This document shows, piece by piece, positions 1-59,077 of a DNA stretch of 64,000 nt. How positions within the stretch are numbered: position 1 is the stretch's first letter; every line of letters begins with the position of its first letter. This stretch comes from Heterodontus francisci (taxonomy: Eukaryota), in NCBI RefSeq assembly GCF_036365525.1, contig NC_090415.1, positions 8,680,001 to 8,744,000 of the forward strand, read 5' to 3'. The notes beneath the pieces are model-generated. The model did no database searches. It saw only the letters and a program-made list of their open reading frames with translations, and was not told where the DNA came from. Made by a program: the position numbers and the translations under genes.

Positions 1-2248
1 GTTGAGCCTAGGTAGGTGAACTCTTGAACCACTTCCAGAGCGTGGTCGCCAATATTGATGGATGGAGCATTTCTGACATCCTGCCCCATGATGTTCGTTT
101 TCTTGAGGCTGATGGTTAGGCCAAATTCATTGCAGGCAGACGCAAACCTGTCGATGAGACTCTGCAGGCATTCTTCAGTGTGAGATGTTAAAGCAGCATC
201 GTCAGCAAAGAGGAGTTCTCTGATGAGGACTTTCCGTACTTTGGACTTCGCTCTTAGACGGGCAAAGTTGAACAACCTGCCCCCTGATCTTGTGTGGAGG
301 AAAATTCCTTCTTCAGAGGATTTGAACGCATGTGAAAGCAGCAGGGAGAAGAAAATCCCAAAAAGTGTGGGTGCGAGAACACAGCCCTGTTTCACACCAC
401 TCAGGATAGGAAAGGGCTCTGATGAGGAGCCACCATGTTGAATTGTGCCTTTCATATTGTCATGGAATGAGGTGATGATACTTAGTAGCTTTGGTGGACA
501 TCCGATCTTTTCTAGTAGTCTGAAGAGACCACGTCTGCTGACGAGGTCAAAGGCTTTGGTGAGATCAATGAAAGCAATGTAGAGGGGCATCTGTTGTTCA
601 CGGCATTTCTCCTGTATCTGACGAAGGGAGAACAGCATGTCAATGGTCGATCTCTCTGCACGAAAGCCACACTGTGCCTCAGGGTAGATGCGCTCGGCCA
701 GCTTCTGGAGCCTGTTCAGAGCGACTCGAGCAAAGACTTTCCCCACTATGCTGAGCAGGGAGATTCCACGGTAGTTGTTGCAGTCACCGCGGTCACCTTT
801 GTTTTTATAGAGGGTGATGATGTTGGCATCGCGCATGTCCTGGGGTACTGCTCCCTCGTCCCAGCACAGGCATAGCAGTTCATGTAGTGCTGAGAGTATA
901 GCAGGCTTGGCACTCTTGATTATTTCAGGGGTAATGCTGTCCTTCCCAGGGGCTTTTCCGCTGGCTAGAGAATCAATGGCATCACTGAGTTCCGATTTGG
1001 TTGGCTATATGTCCAGCTCATCCATGACTGGTAGAGGCTGGGCTGCATTGAGGGCAGTCTCAGTGACAGCATTCTCCCTGGAGTACAGTTCTAGGTAGTG
1101 CTCAACCCAGCGGTCCATCTGTTTGCGTTGGTCAGTGATTATGTCCCCCGATTTAGATTTGAGGGGGGGGCGATCTTCTTGATGGTTGGCCCAAGAGCTC
1201 TCTTCATGCCATCATACATTCCTCTGATGTTTCCGGTGTCTGAGGCCAGCTGAATATGACTGCATAGGTGTTGCCAGTAGTCGTTTGCGCAACGCCTAGC
1301 TGTTCTTTGTGCAGTACTTCTGGCTGCTTTAAGTGCTGCGGATGTTAAATCACTGGGGGCTTTCTTGTAGTTCAACAGTGCAATGCGCTTAGCGGCTATG
1401 ACAGGTTCCAGCTCTTCATTATGAGATTGAAACCAGTCTGCATTTCTCTTCGCACTTTTGCCGTAGGTGGTCAAAGCTGACTCATAGATGGCGTCTCTGA
1501 TGTGGGCCCACTTGGTCTCAGCATCCCCTGTGGGAGTGTTTTGAAGGGCTGTTACAAGTGAATTTAGAAATTTTTGTAACAGCTGTGGGTGAGAAATTCT
1601 GCTCGTGTTGATGCGCGGGTGGCCCTTCTGCTTGGAATGATGCAACTTCTTTGGTCTGAGTCTAACCTTGCTGCACACCAGGGAGTGGTCGGTGTCACAG
1701 TCTGCACTGTGGAAGCTGCGTGTGATTTGAACACTGTTTAAGGTGGGTCGCCTTGTGACAATGAGGTCTAGCTGGTGCCAACTACGTGATCTTGGGTGCC
1801 TCCATGAAACCTGGTGACAGGGTTTAGTGTGAAAGAACGAGTTGGTGATGCAGAGGTTATGATAGGTACACAACTCAAGCAGTCTCTGCCCGTTCTCATT
1901 CATCCTTCCAATGCCATAGCGCCCAAGGCAGGAGGGCCATGAGTCATGGTCGGCCCCAACCCTGGCATTAAAGTCCCCCAGCAGGAATAGGTATTCGGTG
2001 TTGGGGATGCTGCTAATGATGTTATGGAGTTGTTCATAGAACTGGTCTTTAGCTTCATGTGCGGAGCAGAGTGTTGGAGCATAGATGCTGAGTAGGTGTA
2101 CTGGACCAGAGGTGGTGAGCAGTCGGATGGACAGTATGCGTTCTGAGCCATTTGAGGGAGGCTCTATCATGCTGAGCAAGGAGTTTCTGATGGCGAAGCC
2201 CACTCCATGCTGTCTTGGTTCTTCAGGATCCCTGCCCTGACAGAAGAA
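1..2248 (-). mobile_element. RTE-clade (BovB-like) LINE, 5'-truncated; APE endonuclease and RT, runs off the window start
   Basis: ORF 1139..2311 has APE motifs (HGVGFAI, SIYAPT, LLGDFNARVG, DTDHSLV). RT continues to the left after a frameshift at the G-run near 1165. Closely similar to the copy at 44.9-48.2 kb. Confidence 0.92.
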
Positions 2249-2469
2249 GAGAAAAAAAATAGTGTTAATAAAAGAAACGTTTCCAAATGTCACCCCAGAT
2301 TCTTTTGCCAATCCCTTTAAATCTGTGCACTCTGGTTACCGGAAATTGTGTCACCAGAAACAGTTTTTCCTTAGTTTCTTTATTCAATCCACGCATGTTT
2401 TGGATACATCAATTAAATCCTGGGTCCCACATCATGGCTCCGTCCCAGTAATTCGAAGCTTTTAGATCA

Positions 2470-3600: not shown

Positions 3601-3760
3601 TTGCCTTTTGTTTTTTTTTCTTGCAAGGATAGAAATAATATGAAGAATATCAAGTGAGGGTGATAAAAGTTCGTAGTGGGTGGTGGCATATTTCAAGCAA
3701 AAATCTTTAGTTTTTTTTTCTGTCATGGAGCGCTCTTCGTGCAACTATATCAGGTTAGCG

Positions 3761-4222
3761 GTTCTGCAGTGTCCCCTGCTGACGAGATGTAATTGTAGCC
3801 GGACTGCAGCGCCCGCTGCTGCCACTGTATCGGTTTAGCAGTCTCGCAGCGCCCCCTGGTGACGCTATGTCAGCTTAGCAGTCTCGCAGCGCCCCCTGGT
3901 GACGCTGTGTCAGTTTAGCGTTCTCGCAGCGCCCCCTGGTGACGCTGTGTCAGTTTAGCGTTCTCGCAGCGCCCCCTGGTGACGCTGTGTCAGTTTAGCA
4001 GTCTCGCAGCGCCCCCTGGTGACGCTATGTCAGTTTAGCAGTCTCGCAGCGCCCCCTGGTGACGCTATGTCAGTTTAGCGTTCTTGCAGCGCTCCCAGGT
4101 GACGCTTTGTCAGTGCAACGGTCATCGACCATCGCCCGGTGACGCTACGTCAGTTTAGTTGTCCTGGGGCGTCCTCTGGTGAATCTATGCCAGTTGAGCT
4201 TCCGTGCAGTGCCCCTTGGTGA
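3761..4222. repeat. 40-bp tandem repeat, about 12 units (6 near-identical), each carrying a CTCF-like motif
   Basis: Unit GTCTCGCAGCGCCCCCTGGTGACGCTATGTCAGTTTAGCA starts at 3841, 3881, 3921, 3961, 4001 and 4041. Degenerate in-phase units at 3761, 3801 and 4081-4201. Confidence 0.95.
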
Positions 4223-4749
4223 GGTTGATCCCAGAAGTGCTGCGAGTGAGGATATTATAGCTCCAGTCAATGTCACGTCCTTCAAAGTAACCAAAACGCA
4301 CTGGAATTTGCTTTCTTTTGTTATTTGATGTGTTCCATTCATAGCCTATTTGACTTACAAAACTATGCCTATTGACTGCGTTAGACATCTGTTTTATTCT
4401 GCCTCCCTTGAGTTTATAGTGTCACCCAAACATGGCTAACTGCCTGACAGACAAACATGCCCCAAAGCATGACATACAAACATTTTCGACGACATGTCAC
4501 TCAAATGCGGCCGGTGTCACGTCACACAAACATTGTCCGACGCCTGTCACAAACTGCAGCTTGATGTCACACAGACGGCAGACCGACGTCACTCAGACTG
4601 CATGGTGACACGAGGGGGTCATGGGAGTGGGGCAGTGGCAAAACCAGAACGGAATACCTAAAATAAAAACAACGTTTAGAAAAAAAGTGCCCACTTTTTC
4701 CAGAGCCCAATGCTCGAATCAGGTATCTGCCGCTGCCACAGTACCAAAG

Positions 4750-14224: not shown

Positions 14225-14810
14225 GGGTAGCACTCTGCCTATCAGGCAAATCCGAAGACTTAAACACAAATTCCAGACTGCTGCTTCAATGCAGCACTGA
14301 GGGACTGCGACACCATCAGTGGTGCCATCTTGTGGATGAATTGCTGAACTGACGCCCTTCTGTTCTCTCAAGTGAATGAATGATATCCAGTGTTTTTGAA
14401 GGAGAGTCCTCCCATGGCGGCCAAACAACATCAGGAAAAGAGATTAACTAGTAATCTATAAGAACATATGTACAGACAAAATAGGAGCAGGCCATACAGC
14501 CCCTCGACTCTGCTCTGCCATTCAGTAAAATCATGGTTGCTCTTCCACCCTCACACCAGCTTTCCACTCTATCCCCATATCCTATTCTGGCTCAACAACA
14601 GGAAATGTTGGAAATACTCGGCAGGTCAGGCAGCATCTGTGGACAGAAAAAAAAACAGAGCTAACATTTTAAATCTGGCTTGTAGAGGCTCGCTGTGCTC
14701 ATATTAGCTGCCACGTTTCATACTTTACAACACTTTGAGAATACTTAATTGGTTGTAAAGCACAATTGGACGTCCTGGGGACATAAAAGTTGCTATATAG
14801 CCCTTCATTC
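14225..14810 (+). mobile_element. Old SacSINE1/DeuSINE-like SINE, interrupted by a CR1 tail and a PLE end (about 14460-14675)
   Basis: Recognised blocks tgcagcactgaggga...ggtgccatctt...ggatga and gctgccacgtttc...ttggttgtaaagc...ggacgtcctg...gctatata. Confidence 0.6.
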
Positions 14811-21298: not shown

Positions 21299-21976
21299 AT
21301 GGATACTGCTGCCAGCGAAACGGCTCCGCCTGCCGCTCAGGTCAAAGTTGCCAAGAAAAAGAAGACCGCATCCCGGTCTAAGGCAACCGGACCCACGCTG
21401 GCCGAGGTGATCTGCCAGGTTGTGGCGGCTAACCGCGATAGCAAGGGGATGTCCGCGCCCGCCATAAAGAAGGCTCTGGGCAGCAAAGGCTTTGATGGGA
21501 AGACGTTCGGCCGCCGGATCAATGTATCGATCAGGAGGCACGTGGATAAAGGCACCCTGGTGCAGACCAAGGGTAAAGGGGCTTCGGGCTCCTTTAAACT
21601 GCCGAAGGAGAAAGCTGGGGGAAAAGTGACCAAGGCGGGAAAGAAGCCAACAGCCAAAAAACCGGCAGTTAAGAAACCGGCCAAGCAATCTCCCGCCAAG
21701 AAACCGGCCAAGCAATCACCCGCCAAGAAACCGGCCAAGAAATCTCCCGCCAAGAAACTGGCCAGGAATTCTCCCGCCAAGAAAGTGAAGGGCTCGGCGG
21801 GCCCCAAAAAGGCCAAGAAAGCGGCCGCCGGTCAGAAAAAGGTTCCTGCCACGAAGGCTCGGAGCCTCAAGAAGACGAAAGCTGTCGTGAAGTCGGGGGC
21901 GGGCAAAGCGAAAGGGCCTCGCCAGCTGAAAACTCCCAAGGCAAAGAAAGCATTCAAGAAATCCCAGAAGAAGTAA
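21299..21976 (+). CDS. H1: Linker histone H1 (225 aa), replication-dependent
   Basis: ETAPPAA N-terminus, globular domain with LVQTKGKGASGSFKL, Lys/Ala/Pro-rich tail, intronless, 3' stem-loop. Confidence 0.96.
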   Translation: MDTAASETAPPAAQVKVAKKKKTASRSKATGPTLAEVICQVVAANRDSKGMSAPAIKKALGSKGFDGKTFGRRINVSIRRHVDKGTLVQTKGKGASGSFKLPKEKAGGKVTKAGKKPTAKKPAVKKPAKQSPAKKPAKQSPAKKPAKKSPAKKLARNSPAKKVKGSAGPKKAKKAAAGQKKVPATKARSLKKTKAVVKSGAGKAKGPRQLKTPKAKKAFKKSQKK

Positions 21977-22011
21977 ATCAAAGGCGCACCTTGAAAACAT
22001 CCGAACCCAAA

Positions 22012-22053
22012 GGCTCTTCTCAGAGCCACCCACCTTTCTCTAAAAAAAGAGCT
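22012..22053 (+). terminator. Histone 3' stem-loop and HDE
   Basis: GGCTCT-TCTC-AGAGCC, then ACCCA, then AAAGAGCTG. Confidence 0.93.
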
Positions 22054-22948
22054 GAGTCCGCAACTAAATGCCCCGCGTCCGGGTTATAATCTCATAGAAA
22101 TCATGCGGGATAAACAATCGTTGTACCCGTGATTTTTTATAATATAATGAAGAATTACTGCCGAGGTCCCTGTTGGACTCGGGCCCCTTCTGCCAAATAC
22201 AACCTTCAGAACAACCTTTAGTGAGGGAGCAGCGTCTTGATAGCTGTTCGGTTGTTCTAGTACACAATTGTACTGAATACTGGGGAGAGAGCGGCGGCGG
22301 TTAAACTGAGTAGAGAGTATTGAAGTAGAAGGGATGACCTAATGGACGGTTTGACGATAACAACACAATTGAAACAATGTCCTCTGGTTGTGTCGTCCAG
22401 GCAAGGAGATGTTCATTTAAGAGCCATTTGATGCCGTGAGTCGCGGGGAGGCAGAATGTATGGGAGAGGCAGAATGGCCTCGAACTTTTTGCTTTACATG
22501 TTGGAAAGCAAATCGATTCGGTCGGCACAGAAATTGGCGGTCTTTTTGAAAATGAAGCGCCATCCCAGCTCGGCCAATCGTAGTTTACACCCTATCGTTC
22601 AAGCGTCAGTGATTGGTTGGCACCCAGTCGCCCAACCAATCACTGCCCTGACCACAGTTCAAACGGCGAACTCGACAGCCACGTTCGCATTCAGAGTTCC
22701 TGCAGCTTCGATTCCTTCCGAAGATTCGGTTTTATTTAATCTTTGCGCACTTTGCTAATTTGAAATTGGCGGGCTTTTTGAAATTGATGAAATTTACACC
22801 AATCAGGGCCCAGCAATTCCCGCCGCCCTTTCACTTCCCAGAGCTCCTTTCAAACTGAAATGAAGGAAAGGGGCTGCATCCAGTCACAACACTAGGGCGG
22901 TCCCTCAACTGTCTTAAATAGGCAGTCCCTGAGCAGCCTCCGCATTAA

Positions 22949-23380
<432 letters not shown>

Positions 23381-23423
23381 ACTGACCCTGCCCTGAACTG
23401 AGTTCGGCATCAAATACCACAAC

Positions 23424-23464
23424 GGCTCTTTTAAGAGCCACCAAATCGACAAAAGAAAGAGTTG
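23424..23464 (+). terminator. Histone 3' stem-loop and HDE
   Basis: GGCTCTTTTAAGAGCC, then AAAGAGTTG. Confidence 0.95.
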
Positions 23465-23774
23465 TGATCTCTTGTTCATTCCAGCACATAGACGTCTCAG
23501 AAGGATTTGACCACTTTTTTACTGTGTTATGTGGGCGACCCAGAATTCAGGACCTTGCAGTTTTCAGTCGTGTACAGCTCATATTATAGCGGCGATCATT
23601 CTCGAACTGAAGACACGCTTTAGTTGTACATAAACGGTAAGCCTTACAAATATGGCAAGAGAAAATTAAAATGCATTCCATCTGATGAGCAGATAAATGC
23701 TTGACTCCAGTACAATTCATACCAACACAAAATAACTCGAACAGTATAACATTACCGTCTCTCAGACAGTAACC

Positions 23775-23814
23775 AGCCCTTTCACAGATAAAGTGGGTGG
23801 CTCTGAAAAGAGCC
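23775..23814 (-). terminator. Histone 3' stem-loop and HDE (H2A)
   Basis: Minus strand GGCTCTTTTCAGAGCC-ACCCA, then GAAAGGGCTG. Confidence 0.93.
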
Positions 23815-23844
23815 TTTGGGTTGACAAATTCAGGTCTGGCAGCT

Positions 23845-24234
23845 TCACTTGCCCTTCGTGCTCGGAGCGCTGGCTTTCTTGGGCAGCAGCACGGCCTGGA
23901 TATTAGGCAGCACCCCGCCTTGTGCGATGGTCACCCCTCCCAGCAGCCTGTTGAGCTCCTCGTCGTTGCGGACGGCCAGCTGCAGGTGTCTGGGAATGAT
24001 ACGACTCTTCTTGTTGTCCCGGGCCGCGTTGCCGGCCAGCTCGAGAATTTCAGCTGTCAGATACTCGAGCACAGCAGCCAGATAGACCGGGGCTCCGGCA
24101 CCCACCCGCTCAGCATAGTTGCCCTTTTTAAGGAACCTGTGAACACGGCCCACCGGGAACTGCAGTCCAGCTCGGGAGGAGCGGGACTTGGCCTTGGACC
24201 GAGCTTTACCACTGGTCTTCCCTCTTCCAGACAT
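23845..24234 (-). CDS. H2A: Histone H2A (129 aa)
   Basis: MSGRGK...[13 protein letters not shown]...VLLPKK. True ATG at 24234. Confidence 0.97.
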
Positions 24235-24604
24235 TTCCACAATCTCACAAGCACTTTCACGAAGAATGTTGAGATCCGCCCACATTCCTCCTCCTTGTAC
24301 CTTCTGGAGGAATGGTGTTGGGGACACTGCTGATTGGTCAGTCAGCACTCGGTGTCATTGTGCTGTACATGTTACCAATCAGAGAGCGACTAAATTCATC
24401 AATCAGGAGACGCCAAGAAGATGAGGGTGGAAAATAACGGCGCTAAATTGTCAGACTGCAAAGGATTTGAAAAGCCCGCCAATATATTTGTAAAATATGG
24501 AGCAGCTTCAGTATAGAATATCGCATTTATAGGTAATTTGTACAGTAAAAACAAAATAAAATATTTTTCATATTGTGTTATTCTACATTTGGCAGAATGT
24601 AGAT

Positions 24605-24917
24605 GGGCGGCACAGTGGCGCAGTGGTTAGCACCGCAGCCTCACAGCTCCAGGGACCCGGGTTCAATTCTGGGTACTGCCTGTGTGGAGTTTGCAAGTTC
24701 TCCCTGTGTCTGCGTGGGTTTTCGCCGGGTGCTCCGGTTTCCTCCCACATCCAAAAGACTTGCAGGTGATAGGTAAATTGGCTGTTGTAAATTGCCCCTA
24801 GTGTTGGGAGGTGATATTGGATTACTGTAGGGTTAGTATAAATGGGTGGTTGTTGGTCGGCACAGACTTGGTGGGTCGAAGGGCCTGTTTCAGTGCTGTA
24901 ACTCTAAATAAAATAAA
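24605..24917 (+). mobile_element. Full-length HE1/V-SINE-type SINE, absent from the paralogous site in unit 2
   Basis: A/B boxes and CR1 tail; the flanks align to 56590-56640 without it. Confidence 0.9.
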
Positions 24918-25561
24918 AGCTCCAGTTTCGCTTTGTCATTCTGGCATCGATTCGTGTTTACGCTGCCTTTTTTGATCCATTCTGTAACCAGGGGGAAGAA
25001 AGCCTCTTTCACAGCATTCTCCAACCGGGCACATTTCATGTCAATTTTCATAATAATACCGCATCACTGATGAAAGATTGTTTGTTATTCGTGGGAGACA
25101 ACAGCGGAGTGTAGATTTTCAGTGTCAGGTGTCAGCGTGTGAGACGAAGGGTTCCGACACCACCGGGGGTTCTAGATAATGTAATTATTAATTTCTGAGG
25201 TCAAACTTGAACTAGGGAAATAAGTGACTGCGAACTGATGTATGTGCGTTAAATCAGCTTTTATTGTCGAAATACAAAGAAGGAGCCGAATATGAACACG
25301 TCCAAGAACAAACCTCACAAATGGTCAGTGGTCAGTAATTTATGTACGCGACATTATTAGTTAGAGACAGAAAGATCGCACGGGCAGTGAAACTGCATTA
25401 ACCAGAATCTATGGGAGTAAAACAGAGATCACAAAGGCAAGGACACTTGATATATAAATCAATATAAGTCGACACTACACAGACAATGTTGTAGCTTTTT
25501 CAGAGAAGTTGTCGGTGGCTCCTCTTTGGGTTTTCGGTGTTTTTCAGTCCATGGTGGATAT

Positions 25562-25942
25562 TTACTTGGAGCTGGTGTACTTGGTGACCGCCTTTGTACC
25601 TTCCGACACGGCGTGTTTGGCCAGCTCCCCGGGCAGCAGCAGGCGCACGGCGGTCTGGATCTCCCGGGAGCTGATGGTGCTGCGTTTGTTGTAATGGGCC
25701 AGGCGGGAAGCCTCACCCGCGATTCGCTCGAAAATATCATTCACAAACGAATTCATGATGCTCATGGCCTTGGAGGAGATGCCGGTGTCAGGGTGAACCT
25801 GCTTCATCACTTTGTACACGTAGATGGAGTAACTTTCTTTCCTGGGTCTTCTCCGTTTCTTGTTACCCTTCGTTGGCGCCTTCTTCAGAGCTTTCTTGCC
25901 ACCCTTCTTGGGAGGTGCTGCTGTTTTCTTGTCGTCAACCAT
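25562..25942 (-). CDS. H2B: Histone H2B (126 aa); ORF intact but 3' stem-loop disrupted
   Basis: [27 protein letters not shown]...[12 protein letters not shown] at 25942, downstream of TATA. Confidence 0.93.
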
Positions 25943-44231: not shown

Positions 44232-44609
44232 TTAATGACCATATTCGGCGGCGGCAACGAGGGGATCGTGGACGAGCTGCAGGTCGATAACACAGTCACA
44301 AACCAGTGGTTCATCCCTGCAGTTCAGGGGGATTTCCCACCAGGCTGTGCAGCCTATGGCTTCATCTGTGATGGCACCAGGATTCTGGTATTTGGAGGAG
44401 TGGTAAAATATGGAAAATATAGCAATGACCTGTATGAACTGCAGGCAAGCAGATGGGAATGGAAGAAACTAAAACCAAAACCTCCCAAAAATGGTCCGCA
44501 GCCCTGTCCCCGCCTTGGTCATACCTTGTGTCTTGTTGGGACTAAGTGTTATTTGTTTGGTGTTCTGGCTAATGACAGTGAAGACCCAAAGAATAATATT
44601 CCAAGATAC
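44232..44609 (+). pseudogene. HCFC1: Processed (intronless) HCFC1 fragment, Kelch region, about residues 44-169
   Basis: [12 protein letters not shown]...[24 protein letters not shown]...[18 protein letters not shown]...PCPRLGH...[21 protein letters not shown]. Residues favour HCFC1 over HCFC2. No introns. Confidence 0.9.
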
Positions 44610-44879
44610 TCCTCTTGTGTCTCTGATAGTAATTTGTATTGTTATACTGCAATACCTGGTGCAAAATAATGTCAGTTAATCATTGGCAGTTGCATTATTG
44701 ACCTAGAATGCGCATTATATCCCTGCACCCCCTCCCCTACCCCTCTGCAGGCCCCTTCCCATCTCCCCCTCGCACCCCCTTCCCTCCACCCCTTCCCACC
44801 GCACCCCTCCCGCTCGCACTCACTAGCCCACCCCGCACCCCCTTCCCTCCACCTCCTCTCAGCGGTATCCACCTACCTC

Positions 44880-47800
44880 TGAGCAGAGGCCCTAACAATC
44901 CCACTGCCTTGTGGGCGTCTCGGGAGAGACCAAGGTTAAGGGAGTAAACCCAAACGGAAAATCCAGAGCGGAATCCCAAAGGCAGTCATGTGTCACCTTT
45001 TGCATGTTTCCGGCAGTTCCTGCAGCCATACCGGTGTCAAACGTCGTGCTCTGCACTCCTTTGGGCCCCACCAGGAAGGCCGAGAGGGGGGTTTCGACAC
45101 TTGGGCAACTCACAACCTCCATACATCCGCCCAGGCATGTGTCATGGAGAGGTCACTCCGTAGTCGCCTCACAGCGACCAAAACAACACGGAAGGCAGCA
45201 GTTATGGGTTATAAGTCCAGCTCAAGTGGGGTAGAGATTGGGCGCCACGGTCGGTGGGAGAGGTCATCGCATCTTACTGGACAGCTACCACCCGCCTCAA
45301 ACCGGGCAGCCCCCAGTCAGTAAGTTTCTGTCCTGACACAGTCCACCTGCTTCAATGGGTGCTTGGAGCTCAGGGTCATTGCCCGACAAGTGGACTATAA
45401 CACTGCACCAAACAGTACGACAAAGAAAGCAAAGAAGGTACCAGCCCTTCGTTTTGCAATCTGGAATGTCAGAACTATGTTTCCTGGCCTGTCAGAAGAC
45501 CTTACACAAATCAACGATTCTCGGAAGACCGCCATCATTAACAACGAGCTCAGTAGACTCAATGTGGACATCGCAACACTTCAGGAGACACACCTCACTG
45601 CGAGCAGATCTCTAAGAGAGCAAGACTACACCTTCTTCTGGCAGGGCAGGGATCCTGTAGAACCAAGACAGCATGGAGTGGGCTTCGCCATCAGAAACTC
45701 TTTGCTCAGCATGATCGAGCCAGCCTCAAACGTCTCTGAATGCATACTGTCCATCCGACAGTTCACCGCCTCTGGTCCAGTACACCTACTCAGCATCTAT
45801 GTTCCAACACTCTGATCCCCACCTGAAGCTAAAGACCAGTTCTACGAGGAACTCCATATTATCATTAGTAGCATCCCAATACCGAACACCTGTTCCTGCT
45901 GGGGGACTTTAATGCCAGTGTTGGGGCCGACCATGACTCATGGCCCTCCTGCCTTGGGCGCTATGGCATTGGAAGGATGAATGAGAATGGACAGAGACTG
46001 CTTGAGTTGTGTACCTATCATAACCTCTGCATCACCAACTCATTCTTTCACACTAAACCCTGTCACCAGGTTTCTTGGAATTACCCAAGATCACGTTGTT
46101 GGCACCAGCTGGACCTCATCATCAGAAGGCGAGCCTCTTTAAACAGCGTTCAAATCACACGCAGCTTCCACAGTGCAGACTGTGACACCGACCACTCCCT
46201 GGTGTGCAGCAAGTTTAGACTCAAACCAAAAAATCTACATCACTCCAAGCAAATGGGCTGCCTGCGTATCAACACTAGCAGAATTTCTCTTCCATAGCTG
46301 TTACATAAGTTTCTAAATTCACTTGAAAAAGCCCTTCAAAACACTCCTACAGGGGATGCAGAGTCGATTTGGGCCCACATCAGAGATGCCATATATGACT
46401 CAGCAATGACCACCTATGGCAAACGTGTGAAGAAAAATGCAGACTGGTTTCAATCTCACTTTGATGAGCTGGAACCTGTCATAGCCACTAAGCTCATTGC
46501 ACTGCTGAACTACAAGAAAGCCCCCAGCGAGTTAACATCTGTAACACTTAAAGCAGCCAGAAGCACTGCACAAAGAACAGACAGGCGCTGCGCAAATGAC
46601 TACTGGCAACATCTATGCAGTCATATTCAGCTGGCCTCTGACACCGGAAACATCAGAGGAATGCATGATGTCATTAAGAGAGCTTTTGGGCCAACGATCA
46701 AGAAGACGCCCCCCTCAAATCTAAATCAGGGGACACAATCACTGACCAATGCAAGCAAATGAACCGCTGGGTGGAGCACTACCTAGAACTGTACTCCAGG
46801 GAAAATGTTGTCACTGAGACCGCTCACAATGCAGCCCAGTCTCTGCCAGTCATGGATGAGCTGGACGTACAGCCAACAAAATGGGAACTCAGTGATGCCA
46901 TTGATTCTCTAACCAGCAGAAAAGCCCCTGGGAAGGATGGTATTACCCCTGAAATTTTCAAGAGTGCCAAGTCTGCTATACTTTCAGCTCTGCACGAACT
47001 GCTTTGCTTGTGCTGGGATGAGGGAGCAGTACCACAGGACATGCGCGATGCCAATATCATCACCCTCTATAAGAACAAGGGTGACCAAAGTGACTGCAAC
47101 AACTACCGTGGAATCTCCCTGCTCAGCATAGTGGAAAAAGTCTTCACTCGAGTCACTTTAAGCAGGCTCCAGAAGGTGACTGAGCGTGTATACCCTGAGG
47201 CACAGTTTCGAGCAGAGAGATCCACCATTGACATGCTGTTCTCCCTTCACCAGCTACAGGAGAAATGCTGGGAACAACAGATGCCCCTCTACGTTGCTTT
47301 CATTAATCTCACCAAAGCCCTTGACCTCGTCAGCAGACGTGGTCTCTTCAGACTACTGGAAAAGATCGGATGTCAAACAAAGCTACTAAGTATCATCACC
47401 TCATTCCATGACAATATGAAAGGCACAATTCAGCATAGCGGTGCCTCATCAGACCCCTTTCCTATCCTGAGTGGCGTGAAACAGCGCTGTGTTCTCGCAC
47501 TTACACTGTTTGGTATCTTCTTCTCCTTGCTGCTCTCACATGCGTTCAAGTCTTCAGAAGAAGCAATTTTCCTCCACACAAGATCAGGTGGCAGGTTGTT
47601 CAACCTTGCCCGTCTAAGAGTGAAGACCAAAGCATGGAAAGTCCTCATCAGGGAACTCCTCTTTGATGACAATGATGCATTAATATCTCACACTGAAGAG
47701 TATCTGCAGAGTCTCATCGACAGGATTGTGCCTGCCTGCAATGAATTTGGCCTACCATCAGCCTCAAGAAAACATACATCTTGGGACAGGACGTCAGAAA

Positions 47801-48227
47801 TGTTCCATCTATCAATATCGGCGACCACACTCTGGAAGTGATTCATGAGTTCACCTATCTGGGCTCAACTATCACCAGCAACCTGTCTCTCGATGCAGAA
47901 ATCAACAAACACATGGGAAAGGCTTCCACTGCTATGTCCAGAATGGCCACAAGAGTGTGGTAAAATGGCGCACTGAAACGGAACAGAAAAGTCCGAGTGT
48001 ATCAAGCCTGTGTCCTCAGTAACTTGCTCTACAGCAGTGAGGCCCAGACAATGCATGTCTGCCGAGAGCGACATCACAATTCATTCCATCTTCGCTGTCT
48101 CCGGAGAATCCTTGACATTAGGTGGCAGGACCGTATCTCCAATAGAGAAGTCCTCAAGGCGGCCAACATCCCCAGCATATACACCCTACTGAGCCAGCGG
48201 CGCTTGAGATGGCTTGGCCATGTGAGC
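44880..48227 (+). mobile_element. RTE-clade (BovB-like) LINE with 5' UTR, decayed APE-RT ORF, 3' end missing
   Basis: FAIWNVRT, LQET, NYRGISLL, GVKQ, FTYLGS, RRLRWLGHV; several stops and frameshifts. Confidence 0.92.
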
Positions 48228-51111: not shown

Positions 51112-51825
51112 ATGACCGATACTGCAGCCGCCGAAACGGCTCCTCCAGCCGCCGCCGCTCAAGTCAAGACTCCCAAGAAGAAGAAGGCGGCTCCCCGGAA
51201 GGGGTCAGGCGGTCCCAAGTTGGGCGAGCTGATCCTCAAGACTGTGGCGGAATGCAGTGTCCGCGGTGGGATGTCACTGCAGGCAATAAAGAAGGCTCTG
51301 CGTGTTAAAGGTGTCGATGTGGAGAAGAGCAAGTTCCCAATCAAGCAAAGTATCAAGCGGCTTGTGGCGAAAGACTTCCTGGTGCAGACGAAGGGCACGG
51401 GGGCCTCCGGCACCTTCAAAATCGCGAAACAGGAAAAGAAGGGAAATGTGGTGAAGAAGATTAAGACAGGAGCAGCCAAGAGATCTTTAGTGAAGAAAAC
51501 AGCTGCCAAGAAACAGATCACAAAGAAAACAGCCAAGAAATCCCCAGGGAAGAAAATAGTCGCCAAGAAAGTGAGCAGCAAGAAGACAGCAGCCAAGAAA
51601 GTGAGCACCAAGAAGACAGCAGCCAAGAAAGTGACCAGCAAGAAGACAGCAACGCCAAAGAAGGCGGTAAAGAAAGCAACGCTTCCAAAAAAATCTCCAG
51701 CGAAGAATGCTAATAAAGCCAAGAGGGCCACGGGCGGAAAGCCGCCCAAGAAAGTCCAATCATCAAGGGGCGGGAAGAAGCCGAAAGCAGCAAAGGCTCA
51801 GAAAGCAGCCCCTGGAAAGAAGTGA
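51112..51825 (+). CDS. H1: Linker histone H1 (237 aa), replication-dependent
   Basis: MTDTAAAETAPP; globular domain with LVQTKGTGASGTFK; basic tail; stem-loop. True ATG at 51112. Confidence 0.96.
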   Translation: MTDTAAAETAPPAAAAQVKTPKKKKAAPRKGSGGPKLGELILKTVAECSVRGGMSLQAIKKALRVKGVDVEKSKFPIKQSIKRLVAKDFLVQTKGTGASGTFKIAKQEKKGNVVKKIKTGAAKRSLVKKTAAKKQITKKTAKKSPGKKIVAKKVSSKKTAAKKVSTKKTAAKKVTSKKTATPKKAVKKATLPKKSPAKNANKAKRATGGKPPKKVQSSRGGKKPKAAKAQKAAPGKK

Positions 51826-51861
51826 AACAGCACGGGAAACTTGTAGACATCTGAACCCAAA

Positions 51862-51902
51862 GGCTCTTTTCAGAGCCACCCACGTCTCTCAGGAAAGAGC
51901 TG
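51862..51902 (+). terminator. Histone 3' stem-loop and HDE
   Basis: GGCTCTTTTCAGAGCC-ACCCA, then GAAAGAGCTG. Confidence 0.95.
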
Positions 51903-52581
51903 ATCCCCGATCAAATGATCCCTGTCCCGCAGTCGTGTACACATTTCACCTAGAAATGATTTGAAGTAAATCCAGGTTCCCTGGTGACTCTCAACCCAGC
52001 CCTTCCTCACTCTCTGCAACAAATCAGGGATGTCCGGGCCTCACTGTACCCGGGTATATGTTCGGTGAAGTCTCAGTTCATGCTCGTTTCAGGGCGACAG
52101 CCTGTAACACAGTAACACGGGCGAGATACCCCGCGTCACATCTCAAACTCCAATACATGATTTTGTATAATTCAGCTGGGGTTAGGTTTCAGTAAACTGC
52201 TCAATCCGTCTGGGAGGAGAGGTGTGCCGAAACAGGTTGACTTGTGATCGGAAGCACTGCACTTAGGCGGGTGTATTACGAACTTTTATTTGTTACAGAT
52301 CCGTATTTAGACCGCCGGTTTTTGTTATCAGTGACTATCAATGCCGAATCTCCAGGTTTTATGCTGAGCTCTCATGTCGAGAACTGTTTTTTCTTGAATT
52401 GGCGGTTCGAGCAAGTGGGAGGCGGAGCAAGAGGATCAAAGACATTTCTCTGCTCTGTCTGTCACTCAGTTTCCTTCAGACCCGCCTCTGGCTCTCTGAC
52501 TCTTTCTCAGTCAGGTCGGGGCAGGCTGTATAAAAAGGCAGCAGAAGCTGCTCGTTTTTCATTCAGAATCGGTTTGTCTAA

Positions 52582-52902
<321 letters not shown>

Positions 52903-52932
52903 GCAAATCGACCCTGTCTACCAAAAACAAAA

Positions 52933-52948
52933 GGCTCTTATAAGAGCC
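52933..52948 (+). terminator. Histone 3' stem-loop (H4)
   Basis: GGCTCT-TATA-AGAGCC-ACCCA; HDE weak. Confidence 0.88.
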
Positions 52949-53452
52949 ACCCAAAACCTCACATTGAGATAAGTGACCTTGAAACTGCAGCGGGGATGTC
53001 TTGGGATGTGAAATTGTTGGAGCTCATCCAATGTTATGTGGACTTTATCAGATCAGTATTGCATTCTCTTATAGTCACTTTACGTCTCGCACATTTTTTC
53101 ACTGTCTTCTTCTGTTCCATGTTTAATAACCGCGTCATGAATTAAAAGGTTGCAGTTGATAATGTCCATTGCCGACCTGAACTGCCGGTAAAGATGTAGA
53201 AAAGGATTTACTCCCGTTAGAGGAAGAAATGGCCGGAGCTTTATTCCCGCCAGAGACCGAACAGGGAATGAACCCCTATTCAAACCGTGTTGGAAGACAC
53301 AGAGGGGGATCGAGGGCGGAAAAAAATGACGCTAAAAGCAATGAGATTTTATAATCGCTTCCGCCAAATTAGGTTTTCTTTCATCTTTGCGTCGTTTACA
53401 ATGTGAAAATGGCGGGCTTTTTGAAATTGATTCAATTTCAGTTGCAGTTCAA

Positions 53453-54432
53453 CCGGATGTTGCCGGGACTGGAAAAAAATGCAGCTATGAGGAAAGACTG
53501 AATAGGCCGTGGTTGTTTTCTGTGGCACAGAGAATGCTGAGGAGAGATCTGATTGAATTGGATAACATTTTGAGAGGCCTGGATAGAGTGTAGGTGAAGG
53601 GCCAATTTACCTTAATACAGAGGTCACTGACTAGGGGTCAAAGACTTAAAGCGTTTGGTGGAATGATTAGAGGGAAGATGAGGACAAGGTTTTTTTCCCT
53701 CTCATCTACAGGATGGTGGGGGTCTGGAACTCAATGCCTGAAAGGGTAGTTGAGGCAGAAATCTTCAAATCATTCAAAAGAAGTCTGGATATGCACCTCA
53801 AGTGCATATTCTACAGGATTACAGACCAAATGGTAGCAGGTGGGATTAGAATGGGTGGAGAGCTTTCCGGCTGGCACAGACACGATGGTCCAAGTGGCTT
53901 CTTTCTGTGCCATAAACTTTCAATTATTTTCAGAAAAGAGAAGGCTGAGGGGGGACATGATTGAGGGATCCAAAATTATGAAGGTCATTGATAGGTTAGA
54001 CAGGAGGAAACTTTTTGTTTTCCCTCAGCGAACGGATCGATCAGTCGGCAAGGGGCAGGAGGTTTAATGGAGATGTGAGGGGGGAAAAAACACTCATCAT
54101 GTGGTTCGAATCTGGAACACACTGCCTGAATAGGTGGCAGAGGCAGGAACCCTCAGAACATTTAAGAGGTATTTAGATGAGCACTTGAAACGCCATCGCA
54201 TACAAGAATACATGCCAAGTGCTGGAAAATGGGATTAGAATAGTTAGATGCTTGAAGAAATACTTGCAGGTTTATAGGTCAATTGCCCCTAGTGTAGGTA
54301 GATGTTAGGAGAATGGTGGGGATGCCGTAGGGAATATGGGATGAATGGAGGATCAGTATAAATGGGTGTTTGTTGGACGGCACAGACTCGGTGGGCCGAA
54401 GGGCCTGTTTCTGTGCTGTTTAAATCCATGAC
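53453..54432 (+). mobile_element. Two CR1 3' fragments followed by a SINE 3' half
   Basis: SYEERL, KRRLRGDMIE; GGCCGAAGGGCCTGT tail. Confidence 0.82.
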
Positions 54433-54930
54433 TCTATGTTTCGTTATCGCGTCATGAATTAAACGGTTGCATTTGATAATGTCCATTGACGACCTGAACT
54501 GCCGGTGAAGATGATGGATTTATTCCCGTTCGAGTAAGCAATGACCGGAGCTTTATTCCCGCCTGAGACCCAACAAGGAATGAACCCCAATTCAAACCGT
54601 GTTGGAAGAAACGGAGGTGGAATCGAGGGCCGAAAGATGAAGCTCCAAGCAGTGAGATTTTATAATTGTTCCCGCCGAATTAGGTTTTATTTAATCTTTG
54701 AGTAGTTTGCTAATTTGAAATTGGCGGGCTTTTTGAAATTGATGAAATTTCAGTTGCAGTTCAACCAATCAGGGAGCAGCAATTCCCACCGCTCTTTTCC
54801 ATCGTTTCAAATTGGATGATGGACGGGGTTTCATCCAATCACAACATTAGGGCGGTCCTTCGACTGTCTTAAATAGGCAGTCCCTGAGCAGCTTCACCAT
54901 TAAAGCCGACATTGTGTAAGGACTCCGTAG

Positions 54931-55344
<414 letters not shown>

Positions 55345-55387
55345 ACTGACCCTGCCCGGAACTGAGTTCGGCATCAAATACCACAAC

Positions 55388-55428
55388 GGCTCTTTTAAGA
55401 GCCACCAAATCGACAAAAGAAAGTTGTG
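55388..55428 (+). terminator. Histone 3' stem-loop and HDE
   Basis: GGCTCTTTTAAGAGCC, then AAAGAAAGTTG. Confidence 0.93.
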
Positions 55429-55795
55429 ATCTCATGTTCATTCCAGCACATAAACGTCTTAGAAGGTTTTGACCACTTATATACTCAAAGCCGGGAGACA
55501 TAAATACTTTTGTCTGCATCCGGCAGCTGGAGATTTCATGACGTGTCAGTTGTAAGATCTAGAGTAGCGATCCCAATGTGCACAGCGCATTTTAATAGAT
55601 CGGCGATCGTTTTAGGACTGAACAAATGTTTGTGGTACAAAAAGGGTAGAATGGTAAAAGTGCCTTTCCAATAGGGTCTGAGGGAATTAGAATGCATTTC
55701 ATCTGATGAGCAACTAAATGCCAAAATCCAGTACACTTCATTCCAACACAAAACAACGATAACAGTACAATATTACAGTCTTTCAGACAGTAACC

Positions 55796-55835
55796 AGCCC
55801 TTTCACAGATAAAGTGGGTGGCTCTGAAAAGAGCC
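55796..55835 (-). terminator. Histone 3' stem-loop and HDE (H2A)
   Basis: Minus strand GGCTCTTTTCAGAGCC-ACCCA. Confidence 0.93.
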
Positions 55836-55865
55836 TTTGGGTTCACAGATTCAAGTCAGGCCGCT

Positions 55866-56375
<510 letters not shown>

Positions 56376-56989
56376 TCATTGTGCTGTACATGTTACCAAT
56401 CAGAGAGCTGCTCAATTCACCAATCACAAGAAGACAGTGAGTTGAGAGCGGAAAATAAGAGCGCGAAATGGTCAGGCTCCCAACGATATTTCACATTTGA
56501 AAAGCCCGCCAATATATTTGTAAAAAAGGGGGCGGCTTCAATGTTGAATATTACATTTATAGGTCATATTGTTTTGCAGAAAACATTGTAAAAACTTTTT
56601 ATTTTTTTTATTCCACATTTTGTCCCCGATTGTTCCAGATTCGCTTTTGTAATCCGCCATGTATTCTGCTTTATTCTTTTCTTTTTATGATACTGTCTGT
56701 AACCAGCGGCTGAAAGCCTCATTCACAGTATCCTGCAACCGGACACATTTCAGGTCAATTTTCATAATAATTCTACATCACTGATTATAGATTGATCCCT
56801 TTTCGTGGAGGACAAAAGAGGAGTAGAGATATTCTGTGTTATGTGCCAAAAAACCTATCTGCCGACATCCCTGACCTTCTGACTCCCTCTGTTACTGTCT
56901 CTTCAATTACTTCCATTTTGTTGGAACTGGACCGTTACTTTTTCATTCTCTACCTATCATTCCACCGCACATCTATTTAGGCCCAGGCA

Positions 56990-57071
56990 GACTAGGTGGT
57001 CGGGTGGTTAACGCGATTGACAACTAATTCATTGAGCTCTGCCTGCGTGGCTTCAAATCGTTTGTCTGTGA
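56990..57071 (+). pseudogene. tRNA-Ser(GCT) pseudogene
   Basis: gactaggtggtcgggtggttaacgcgattgacaactaattcattgagctctgcctgcgtggcttcaaatc aligns without gaps to vertebrate tRNA-Ser-GCT (GACGAGGTGGCCGAGTGGTTAAGGCGATGGACTGCTAATCCATTGTGCTCTGC...). Anticodon loop, B box and acceptor stem are mutated. Confidence 0.8.
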
Positions 57072-57149
57072 AATGTTTCTCTTAGCTGGTTGTCACTGAA
57101 GAGCACCGACTTCAGATGTCTTTTTAAGAATGTGCTGGGTCTTTCATGC

Positions 57150-58040
57150 TGAACAAGAACAAAGAACAGTACAGCACAAGAACAGGCCATTCGGCCCTCC
57201 AAGCCTGCGCCGATCTTGATGCCTGCCTAAACTAAAACCTTCTGCACTGCCGGGGTCCGTATCCCTCTATTCCCATCCTATTCATGTATTTGTCAAGTTG
57301 CCTCTAAAACGTCTCTATGGTACCTGCTTCCACCACCTCCCCCGGCAACAAGTTCCAGGCACTCACAACCGTCTGTGTAAGGATCTTGCCTCGCACATCC
57401 CCTCGAAACTTTGCCCCTCTCACCTTAAACCTATGTCCCCAGGAAATTGACTCTTCCACCCTGGGGAAAAATCTTCTGATTATCCACTCTGTCCATGCCA
57501 CTCATAACTTTGTCAACCTCTATCATGTCGCCCCTCTACCTCCGTCGTTCCAGTGAAAACAATCCGAGTTTATCCAACCTCTACTCATAGCTAATGTCCT
57601 CCAGACCAGGCTACATCCTGGTAAACCTCTTCTGTAACCACTCCAAAGCCTCCACGGCCAACTGGTAGTGTGGCGACCAGAATTGCACGTGTGGCCTAAC
57701 TAAAGTTCTGTACAGCTGCAGCGTGACTTGCCAATATTTATACTGCAAAATGCATTACCTCACATTTGACTGGACTAAATTCCATCTGCCACGATGGAAT
57801 ACGAGAAAGAACTTTTTATGTACTGAATGGTAATGACCTGGAACTCACTGACCACAAGGGTGGAAGAAGCTGAGGCAGTTAATGACGTCAAGAGGATATT
57901 GGGATGGCATCTGAAGGAAATAAACTTGCAGAGCTACAAGGATCGTGTGGGGAAATGAGTGTGACTGGATTCATCTATGGAGAGCTGGCATGGAGTCGAT
58001 GGGCCCAATGGCTTCCTTCTGTGCTGGAAATATCTGTATG
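57150..58040. mobile_element. CR1 3' fragments (minus 57150-57790, plus about 57800-58040)
   Basis: GHRFKVRGAKFRGDVRGK; CR1 tails. Confidence 0.85.
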
Positions 58041-58244
58041 TTTACTATTTGTTTGAGACTGTAACCTGATTATTTTAAAGGCTTTTTCAATATATAGTAG
58101 CCATAAAAAGAAACCACAGGTCTATTTTATGTGAGAACTGCATGGATGATGAGAATTTTATCAATTGCTCTGACATTTTTAGATAGTTTAATTCAAGTTC
58201 CAGAATTAAAGCCTGACATTCAACAGGGCAATAAAGATGGTCAT

Positions 58245-58316
58245 TGTGATGGCCAGGAATCAAAACTAACTCAACTGCTTGGAAAGCAGCTTTGCTCACC
58301 AATATAACAAGATTGT
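58245..58316 (-). pseudogene. tRNA-Gly(TCC) pseudogene
   Basis: tggccaggaatc...tcaactgcttggaaagcagctttgctcacca matches the reverse complement of vertebrate tRNA-Gly-TCC (...GTCAACTGCTTGGAAGGCAGCTATGCTCACCA...). Confidence 0.8.
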
Positions 58317-58429
58317 TTCTGGAAACAGGCCCCTCAGGCTTCATTTATAGAGCAACTACACACAATAGCCTTCTGATTAATCAAATGCTTTGCAAGCATT
58401 TTAATCTGAAACTTTTAGTTTATGTTCAT

Positions 58430-58590
58430 CAAAAACAAAATACTGCGGATGCTGGAAATCTGAAATAAAAACAGAAAGTACTGTAAATACTCTGATGTAA
58501 GATCACAGACCTGAAACGTTAAATCTGTTGCTCTCTCCGCAGATATTGCTAGTCCTGATGGGTATATCCAGCACTTTGTTTTCATTACCA
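58430..58590. mobile_element. Partial inverted pair of Penelope-like ends
   Basis: aaatactgcggatgctggaaatctg followed by gacctgaaacgttaa...ccagcactttg. Confidence 0.65.
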
Positions 58591-58939
58591 CGTTTATGTT
58601 ACCATTGAAGGGTAGAATCATTGAATGGTTGCATCACAGAAAGAGGACATTCGGCCCATTCTGTCTGGGCCAGGTTTCTGCAGAGCAGCTGACCTAGTCC
58701 CACTCCCCGGCCTTTTCTCCAGTGCTTGGTAATTTTGATTTACTCTTCATATCATTATCCAATTCTCTTTGGAAGGGCTCTATTGAATGCGTCTCCACCA
58801 CACTCTGTTATTTCTCTCCAATTAAAATAGTTACAAATGAATGGTTCTCTCGTTGCACGACTCACTTTCGGCCAGAAGATGGCACCAGCCACAATCATTT
58901 GCTCCTTCCGGTTTTTGTTTGCACGTCTCTTTTGTGATG

Positions 58940-59077
58940 GGCCTGTTGCTGCCTGGGGAGCTTGCCAAGCCCACCATGTCGAAAGGGACAAAGGCAGTGA
59001 CCAAGCACAACAGCTCCTTGTAGATCTCCACAATGTACAGAAATAAAGCACCAAGCACAACGGCTCTTTTAAGATCC
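58940..59077 (+). pseudogene. H2B: H2B pseudogene, C-terminal fragment with decayed stem-loop
   Basis: [26 protein letters not shown] versus [26 protein letters not shown]; GGCTCTTTTAAGATCC at 59062-59077. Confidence 0.88.

What the first reader, a model, noticed from the sequence alone, without database searches (positions are those of the whole stretch)
3761..4222. Phased 40-bp tandem array of CTCF motifs about 17 kb upstream of the histone cluster: candidate multi-site insulator
Seen: six near-identical 40-bp units each read, on the minus strand, GTCACCAGGGGGCGCTGC. About six more diverged units stay exactly in phase, and several still keep a CTCF-like core (minus strand TCAGCAGGGGACACTGCA, TCACCAAGGGGCACTGCA). 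All point the same way, and CpGs are retained in an otherwise CpG-poor region. Established: the CTCF core consensus is CCASYAGRKGGCRS, matched here with one mismatch, and same-orientation CTCF clusters make strong loop-extrusion barriers. Inference: a minisatellite-built boundary for this domain. The homogeneous centre with old edges suggests continuing copy-number turnover.
Basis: partly seen in the sequence, partly recalled or inferred. Interest (0 to 1): 0.75.

Follow-up and report, generated by a model that had tools for sequence, protein, structure and literature searches.

The report
Shark minisatellite made of CTCF sites
A 40-base DNA unit repeated 13 times near histone genes in a shark-type genome carries the docking motif of the genome-folding protein CTCF and likely binds it, which would make a chromatin barrier facing away from those genes, but its outer copies decay like ordinary repeat DNA and related units occur elsewhere in the genome, so it is likely incidental rather than a dedicated histone boundary.

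Summary
The array is real: 13 in-phase 40-bp units (3727-4246), six nearly identical. Nine of 13 score p<1e-4 for CTCF (recalled matrix), all on the minus strand. Each unit is about one two-part CTCF site long. The six central sites likely bind CTCF and would stop cohesin arriving from the left.

The case for a selected histone boundary is weak:
- Diverged units lose core and spacer bases equally (22/95 vs 25/105).
- Their CpGs decay as in neighbouring transposons, not as in the histone genes.
- The second histone unit has no such array.
- Genome-run contigs show related units at other loci, one with a damaged core.
- The motifs face away from the histone genes, and only 3.7 kb of DNA to the left is visible.

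No ChIP, ATAC or Hi-C data were found. CTCF-site minisatellites are known (mouse DXPas34, human SLC6A4 VNTRs), and this scan has already noted several in other shark windows. Verdict: a new member of a known kind, probably a real but incidental barrier.

The parts
3727..4246 (-). Whole 40-bp minisatellite, 13 units in phase, no indels; one CTCF-like core per unit on the minus strand
3847..4086 (-). Six homogeneous centre units. Identical 19-bp core (18.6 bits, p=3.4e-7, recalled matrix). All five polymorphic columns lie outside the core. TGC (3 units) or CGC (3 units) sits 15 nt before the core start, near the upstream-module position
   Evidence: spacing compared with sites printed in PMC11194110
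3727..3846 (-). Three diverged left-edge units (core scores -21.7, 15.4, 10.0)
4087..4246 (-). Four diverged right-edge units (core scores 6.6, -0.2, 10.8, 6.9); the last keeps mainly the core half
4423..4620 (.). Adjacent older 22-25-bp tandem repeat, CpG-rich (o/e 0.88 over 4451-4720), single-copy; link to the array unknown
14320..14338 (-). Context: single strong CTCF match, same direction as the array, inside an old SINE-like repeat (family label recalled)
21299..25942 (.). Context: histone unit A (H1, H3, H2A, H2B; no H4 found)
51112..59017 (.). Context: histone unit B (H1, H4, H3, H2A, H2B remnant); no 40-bp array near it
58869..58887 (+). Context: strongest single CTCF match in the window (21.5 bits), pointing right, so divergent from the array across the histone genes

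Best explanation
This is a minisatellite of 13 in-phase 40-bp units, likely made by tandem copying of one two-part CTCF site, whose six central units likely bind CTCF and would stall cohesin arriving from the left, but which is likely an incidental barrier rather than a boundary selected for the histone genes. Shown: the array, its motif scores and orientation, single-copy flanks, equal decay of core and spacer in the edge units, and related units at other loci. Inferred, step by step: (1) The unit length (40 bp) just exceeds a core plus upstream module (about 34 bp), so the founder was probably a real site. (2) Unequal exchange or slippage homogenises the centre and leaves the edges to decay, which renews six intact cores without needing selection. 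(3) The core has no CpG at position C2, the position whose methylation dominates inhibition, so CTCF could bind even if the array is methylated. (4) With 21-bp linkers, three to six sites could be occupied at once. (5) Left-pointing sites would anchor the domain to the left and partly shield the histone side, but would not anchor a loop over the histone genes.
For: Motif strength and one direction; chance 1.2e-4 per shuffled unit. GC of the upstream module at the same offset in 10 of 13 units, full TGC in 4 of 13 (reference sites in PMC11194110 have TGC at 14 nt, here 15). The two-part motif holds across vertebrates (PMC5504073 passages). Skate TADs carry inward-facing CTCF motifs (PMC10115646 passages). 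C2 methylation dominates inhibition (PMC10325916 passages). Neutral-looking decay: core 22/95 vs upstream 25/105 substitutions in 5 full edge units (p=1.0), and 38/133 vs 44/147 in all 7; high-information columns not spared (8/35 vs 39/165); summed score retention p=0.06-0.57 across 12 simulations. CpG decay 13/34 vs control 10/47. Related units elsewhere: of 11 contigs laid from run X2, 8 are under 95% alike. One is a 3,796-bp single-copy contig matching 77 bp ungapped at 82% across two units, with changes in the core; another is a 345-bp contig matching 35 bp at 91%.
Against: No binding data exist here, and the matrix is recalled. The first core C is a T (about 4% in the recalled matrix) and the upstream module is a poor match beyond TGC, so affinity may be modest. 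[quoted passage not shown] Double footprints were shown for 30-40-bp linkers (PMC4562119 passages), not 21. Against 'incidental': all 5 polymorphic centre columns avoid the core (about 4 events, p near 0.07, my arithmetic). Also 5 of 7 edge units keep a score of 6.5 or more (p=0.014-0.20 by model; threshold chosen after seeing the data). The selection test has low power. The divergent layout with the site at 58869 fits real boundaries (PMC7422557).
Confidence: 0.55

Rival explanations
1. A selected, minisatellite-built boundary that closes the neighbouring domain and shields the histone locus.
For: Six strong co-oriented sites. Left-pointing clusters lie just left of boundaries (PMC11828424; PMC7422557). 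Insulation can be orientation-independent (PMC7087399). A divergent partner sits at 58869, 55 kb away. Centre polymorphisms avoid the core, and there is a weak trend for edge units to keep scores. No coding exon was detected between array and H1 (of 140 ORFs in 1-21300, 2 had Pfam hits, both LINE).
Against: No sparing of the core in edge units; CpG decay; absent at histone unit B; relatives at other loci, one with a damaged core. Unchecked earlier notes place histone genes 4 Mb beyond this window, and the left side is unseen, so the array may lie inside the locus.
Confidence: 0.17
2. An inert, methylated GC-rich minisatellite whose unit only resembles a CTCF site and is not occupied.
For: CpG decay like transposons. 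T at the first core C and a weak upstream module. The same 13-mer occurs in tandem in 3 GC-rich metagenome contigs with no homology beyond the motif region, two of them apparently bacterial coding repeats, so such matches arise without CTCF.
Against: A score of 18.6 bits is rare by chance; six copies give several chances to bind; no CpG at C2; the unit length fits one full site.
Confidence: 0.2
3. A promoter-side clustered CTCF/CTCFL element that opens a start site (for example a germline non-coding RNA) in the adjacent CpG-rich repeat.
For: Clustered sites act as BORIS-driven promoters in mammals (PMC10832218; PMC4562119). Sharks have a testis-biased CTCFL (PMC7471279 abstract). A CpG-rich stretch lies at 4451-4720. 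Unchecked earlier notes put similar arrays at shark promoters.
Against: No gene or exon found nearby. The motifs point left, into high-copy repeat debris. The CpG-rich stretch has no match elsewhere in the window.
Confidence: 0.08

Closest known systems
Mouse DXPas34 minisatellite beside the Tsix promoter (PMC3149622, passages)
   Same: Short (30-34 bp) CpG-rich monomers, each with a CTCF site; copy number and site content vary between species, and one vole lacks the sites.
   Different: DXPas34 abuts a known promoter and has a described regulatory role; this array has no gene within 17 kb on the side that can be seen, and no binding data. No sequence homology was tested.
Human SLC6A4 LPR and Stin2 VNTRs (PMC2848977, abstract and opening text)
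   Same: Minisatellites bound by CTCF in ChIP.
   Different: Units of 16-23 bp, shorter than a full site; polymorphic and gene-linked; copy-number variation is not shown here.
Clustered CTCF sites, 2xCTS (PMC4562119, PMC10832218; passages)
   Same: Several motifs under one peak, same strand.
   Different: Mapped examples have 30-40-bp linkers and lie at active promoters or enhancers; here linkers are 21 bp, edge CpGs decay, and no promoter is shown.
Tandem CTCF arrays at Pcdh and Igh (PMC7087399, passages); DXZ4/ICCE repeats (search listing only)
   Same: Co-oriented arrays that act as permeable, additive barriers.
   Different: Those sites are spaced far wider (recalled: hundreds of bases to kilobases) and were tested by ChIP or deletion.
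Sea urchin sns5 insulator in the early histone cluster (PMC3784565, passages)
   Same: An insulator associated with a histone cluster.
   Different: sns5 lies between H2A and H1 inside the cluster and is CTCF-independent; this array is absent from the second histone unit.

Membership tests
CTCF-site minisatellite (DXPas34-like kind) | Head-to-tail short units | tested here: met
   13 units of 40 bp in phase
CTCF-site minisatellite (DXPas34-like kind) | A CTCF motif in most units, one direction | tested here: met
   9 of 13 at p<1e-4, all minus strand; recalled matrix
CTCF-site minisatellite (DXPas34-like kind) | CTCF occupancy in vivo | not testable with these tools
   None of 12 listed runs is labelled ChIP or ATAC; 8 have no library record
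CTCF-site minisatellite (DXPas34-like kind) | Copy-number variation between individuals | tested here: inconclusive
   Other individuals' runs gave no usable cover (X9-X11: 0 reads; X8: under 1x). Three centre variants are absent from contigs, which fits either bubble removal or another allele
Two-part (core plus upstream) vertebrate CTCF site | Core motif | tested here: met
Two-part (core plus upstream) vertebrate CTCF site | Upstream module at the right spacing | tested here: inconclusive
   TGC 15 nt before the core in 4 of 13 units, GC in 10 of 13; the rest matches poorly; no upstream matrix was available. The 6-bp spacer class is recalled
Selected domain boundary of the histone locus | Motif conserved above spacer | tested here: not met
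   22/95 vs 25/105 substitutions; simulations p=0.06-0.57 for summed score; low power
Selected domain boundary of the histone locus | Protected, unmethylated CpGs | tested here: inconclusive
   Indirect only: decay ratio 1.8, like 3 of 5 transposon pairs (1.6-2.0; the other two 0.9 and 1.3), unlike histone pairs (0.9, 1.2); Fisher p=0.045 and 0.073
Selected domain boundary of the histone locus | Position at the cluster edge, conserved in other sharks | not testable with these tools
   No whole genome held; only one organism label holds the stretch
Selected domain boundary of the histone locus | Hi-C insulation minimum | not testable with these tools
   No such data on hand
High-copy transposon fragment | High genomic copy number of array and flanks | tested here: not met
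   Depth about 6 on the array's edges and flanks against up to 1e5-1e6 on neighbouring repeats; relatives exist only at tens of copies

The most novel reading that the evidence does not exclude
Shark genomes repeatedly amplify whole two-part CTCF sites into 33-41-bp minisatellites, so that boundaries are born, tuned by copy number and lost through tandem turnover rather than by transposon spread. This array would be a live example that partitions a megabase histone locus, with allele length setting insulation strength.
Probability: 0.15. Interest if true: 0.65.

Novelty: new member of a known kind. Interest (0 to 1): 0.25.

Why it matters
As a single locus it matters little: CTCF-bearing minisatellites are known in mammals, and nothing ties this one to histone control. 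It gains value as one of a recurring class in sharks (unchecked earlier notes). If such arrays are bound and vary in length, they are natural dose series for how site number and very tight spacing (40 bp) set insulation. They would also be a route for CTCF-site birth distinct from the transposon spread described for mammals and lamprey (PMC5504073). Two searches found no paper on this in sharks ('CTCF, tandem repeat, elasmobranch'; 'shark, histone, gene cluster, minisatellite'), in a library that lacks most subscription journals.

Tried and rejected
Genome-wide search: no whole genome is held, so none was possible. Earlier-finding look-ups by sequence, by relatives and nearby found no homologous stretch.

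Expression and other individuals: no RNA holder is listed on record. A guessed-RNA run (X5) holds 5% of the words and shows depth up to 3.5 only around 4265-4717 among the single-copy bins; this is too weak to use either way. RAD runs X9-X11 laid 0 reads and the capture run X8 under 1x on the array, so they test nothing.

Copy number: a long collapsed array of the centre unit is unlikely. The two perfect-match loop contigs have depth 13.2 and 23.8 against 7.3 single-copy; expected values are 8.9/20.2 for the assembled allele and 14.6/21.9 for three identical units. Allele difference is not decidable, because contigs drop variants.

Other collections: the metagenome scan gave 3 loci with no homology beyond the motif region; the viral scan gave 0.

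Other features: no tRNA and no Rfam family at the array. Kinship with the 41-bp satellite between histone units was rejected: it shares only a 9-10-base word, and a profile of the 13 units finds nothing outside the array (best E 1.1). A coding role was rejected: no Pfam hit among ORFs near the array.

Papers: PMC9410893 gave no passage for my terms; PMC3902912 passages were read and not used. No supplements were opened; the motif matrices there could refine the scores.

Full report
Observation. The array is as described and slightly longer. Thirteen 40-bp units run in phase from 3727 to 4246 without indels. Identity to unit 3847 is 36-40 of 40 in the six centre units and 19-32 in the seven edge units, against 6-13 in six flanking 40-mers. 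With a recalled JASPAR MA0139.1 matrix, the six centre cores score 18.6 bits (p=3.4e-7), three edge units pass p<1e-4, two narrowly miss and two fail; all are on the minus strand. The window holds 28 sites at p<1e-4 and 8 at p<1e-6, six of them here. Of 200,000 shuffles of the unit, 0.012% score as well. A genome has many minisatellites, so rarity per unit does not prove function.

Anatomy of the unit. Read on the motif strand, each unit is 21 bases of upstream sequence plus the 19-base core. CTCF sites printed in PMC11194110 start their upstream module with TGC 14 bases before the core. Here TGC sits 15 bases before it in 4 of 13 units and the GC in 10 of 13. A second spacer class one base longer is recalled, not checked. 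The rest of the module matches poorly. The unit is therefore about one two-part site long, a form shared from lamprey to human (PMC5504073 passages). The core has a CpG at C12 but not at C2; C2 methylation dominates inhibition (PMC10325916 passages). Binding is thus likely but untested.

Surroundings. The window holds two histone units: H1, H3, H2A, H2B at 21.3-25.9 kb, and H1, H4, H3, H2A with an H2B remnant at 51.1-59.0 kb, with six histone stem-loops. Of 140 ORFs in 1-21300, 2 have Pfam hits, both from one LINE. I scanned 68 of 167 ORFs in the rest; the hits were LINE, histone and one host-cell-factor kelch fragment. The two histone units share sequence over 20.8-25.1 kb and 50.6-56.8 kb, and a profile of the array finds no second copy in the window. 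So the array is not a per-unit element. 'Shark' rests on earlier notes for this genome and on recalled repeat types. One unchecked note places histone genes 4.05 Mb beyond the window end. Only 3.7 kb lies left of the array, so an edge position is not shown.

Orientation. Reverse motifs lie on the left of boundaries and face the domain to their left (PMC7422557 passages; PMC11828424 section 12); skates follow the same code (PMC10115646 passages). The array would therefore anchor the left neighbour. It could still shield the histone side, since insulation can be orientation-independent (PMC7087399 passages), and a strong right-pointing site at 58869 makes a divergent pair around the histone genes. 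One such site in 64 kb is thin support.

Selection. In the five full edge units, substitutions fall on the core at 22/95 and upstream at 25/105; in all seven, at 38/133 and 44/147. High-information columns are not spared (8/35 vs 39/165). Simulated random decay with CpG rates of 1x, 5x and 10x reaches the observed summed score with p=0.06-0.57. Results leaning the other way: 5 of 7 edge units keep 6.5 bits or more (p=0.014-0.20, threshold set after the fact), and all five polymorphic centre columns avoid the core. The test is weak, but it gives no firm sign of selection.

CpG. The array is CpG-rich (0.87 vs 0.45), but recent copying alone would keep CpGs in the centre. Edge-versus-centre comparisons show CG to TG/CA in 13 of 34 cases against 10 of 47 for a GC control (ratio 1.8). 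Five transposon pairs give ratios of 2.0, 2.0, 1.6, 0.9 and 1.3; two histone-region pairs give 0.9 and 1.2. Fisher tests on CpG versus other C/G sites give p=0.045 and 0.073. This leans towards germline methylation at least in the past. Numbers are small, and one of these changes is tolerated by CTCF.

Copy number and relatives. Five of 12 listed runs hold the stretch, all from one sample and one organism label; none is labelled ChIP or ATAC. Contigs give depth about 6 on the array's edges and flanks, and up to 1e5-1e6 on nearby repeats, so this is no high-copy transposon. In run X2, 11 contigs were laid on 3625-4560; 3 are perfect and 8 are under 95% alike. One 3,796-bp contig at single-copy depth matches 77 bases ungapped at 82% across two units, with three changes in a core. 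A 345-bp contig matches 35 bases at 91%, and its adjoining letters repeat the unit junction. Three short contigs with 4-9 differences have depth 9-29. Three unlisted contigs account for about 8,850 depth-bases; if they are 31-35 bases long, that is roughly 35-40 single-copy equivalents (my estimate). The simplest reading is a small family of related units at other loci; an unassembled allele is not excluded. The perfect contigs form a closed loop at two to three times single-copy depth, so the centre is not a long collapsed satellite. The 94 of 748 words missing from them match the 0.88 share held, and fit either bubble removal or a different allele.

Mechanism. Most likely (0.55) a CTCF site was tandemly copied, and turnover keeps six cores intact while the edges decay. 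CTCF occupies some of them and forms a left-facing, permeable barrier that is incidental to the histone genes. Rivals: unoccupied repeat (0.20), selected histone boundary (0.17), CTCF/CTCFL promoter element (0.08; PMC10832218 and PMC4562119 passages; PMC7471279 abstract). How many sites 40 bp apart can be filled at once is unknown; published double footprints had 30-40-bp linkers.

Comparison and novelty. It works like mouse DXPas34 (PMC3149622 passages; the lead came from earlier notes) and the SLC6A4 VNTRs (PMC2848977 abstract). It meets the sequence features of that kind; occupancy is untested. It fails the one boundary feature I could test directly. The scan has noted similar arrays near shark immune genes and promoters, with no sequence look-alike to this one; those notes are leads only. 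Two literature searches found nothing for sharks. New member of a known kind; interest 0.25.

Noticed in passing
window 4423-4620: Decayed 22-25-bp tandem repeat, CpG-rich and single-copy, about 180 bp right of the array; a guessed-RNA run shows faint depth around it.
   Followed up: partly
window 31.0-32.6 kb, 33.5-34.3 kb, 35.1-35.6 kb, 40.7-42.1 kb, 59.3-59.5 kb, faintly 15.9 kb: Old TG-rich 41-bp satellite between histone units; apparently the kind earlier notes link to spliced RNAs in this genome's histone locus. Shares only a 9-10-base word with the CTCF unit.
   Followed up: partly
window 44232-44666 (+): Host cell factor kelch fragment (Pfam Kelch_HCF, E=2.5e-73) in one open frame; likely a retrocopy.
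   Followed up: partly
window 21299-25942 and 51112-59017: Unit A has no H4; unit B has only an H2B remnant (58943-59017); the two H1 proteins are only about 47-50% identical.
   Followed up: no
window 14320-14338 (-) and 58869-58887 (+): Two single strong CTCF matches, divergent around the histone genes; the first lies in an old SINE-like repeat (label recalled), the second beside the H2B remnant.
   Followed up: partly
window 1-2249 and 45632-47869: Two copies of one LINE, 90% identical, in opposite orientation.
   Followed up: no
L002 1467-1556: A GC-rich metagenome contig has a perfect 43-bp tandem duplication holding the same CTCF-like 13-mer; source organism not determined.
   Followed up: no
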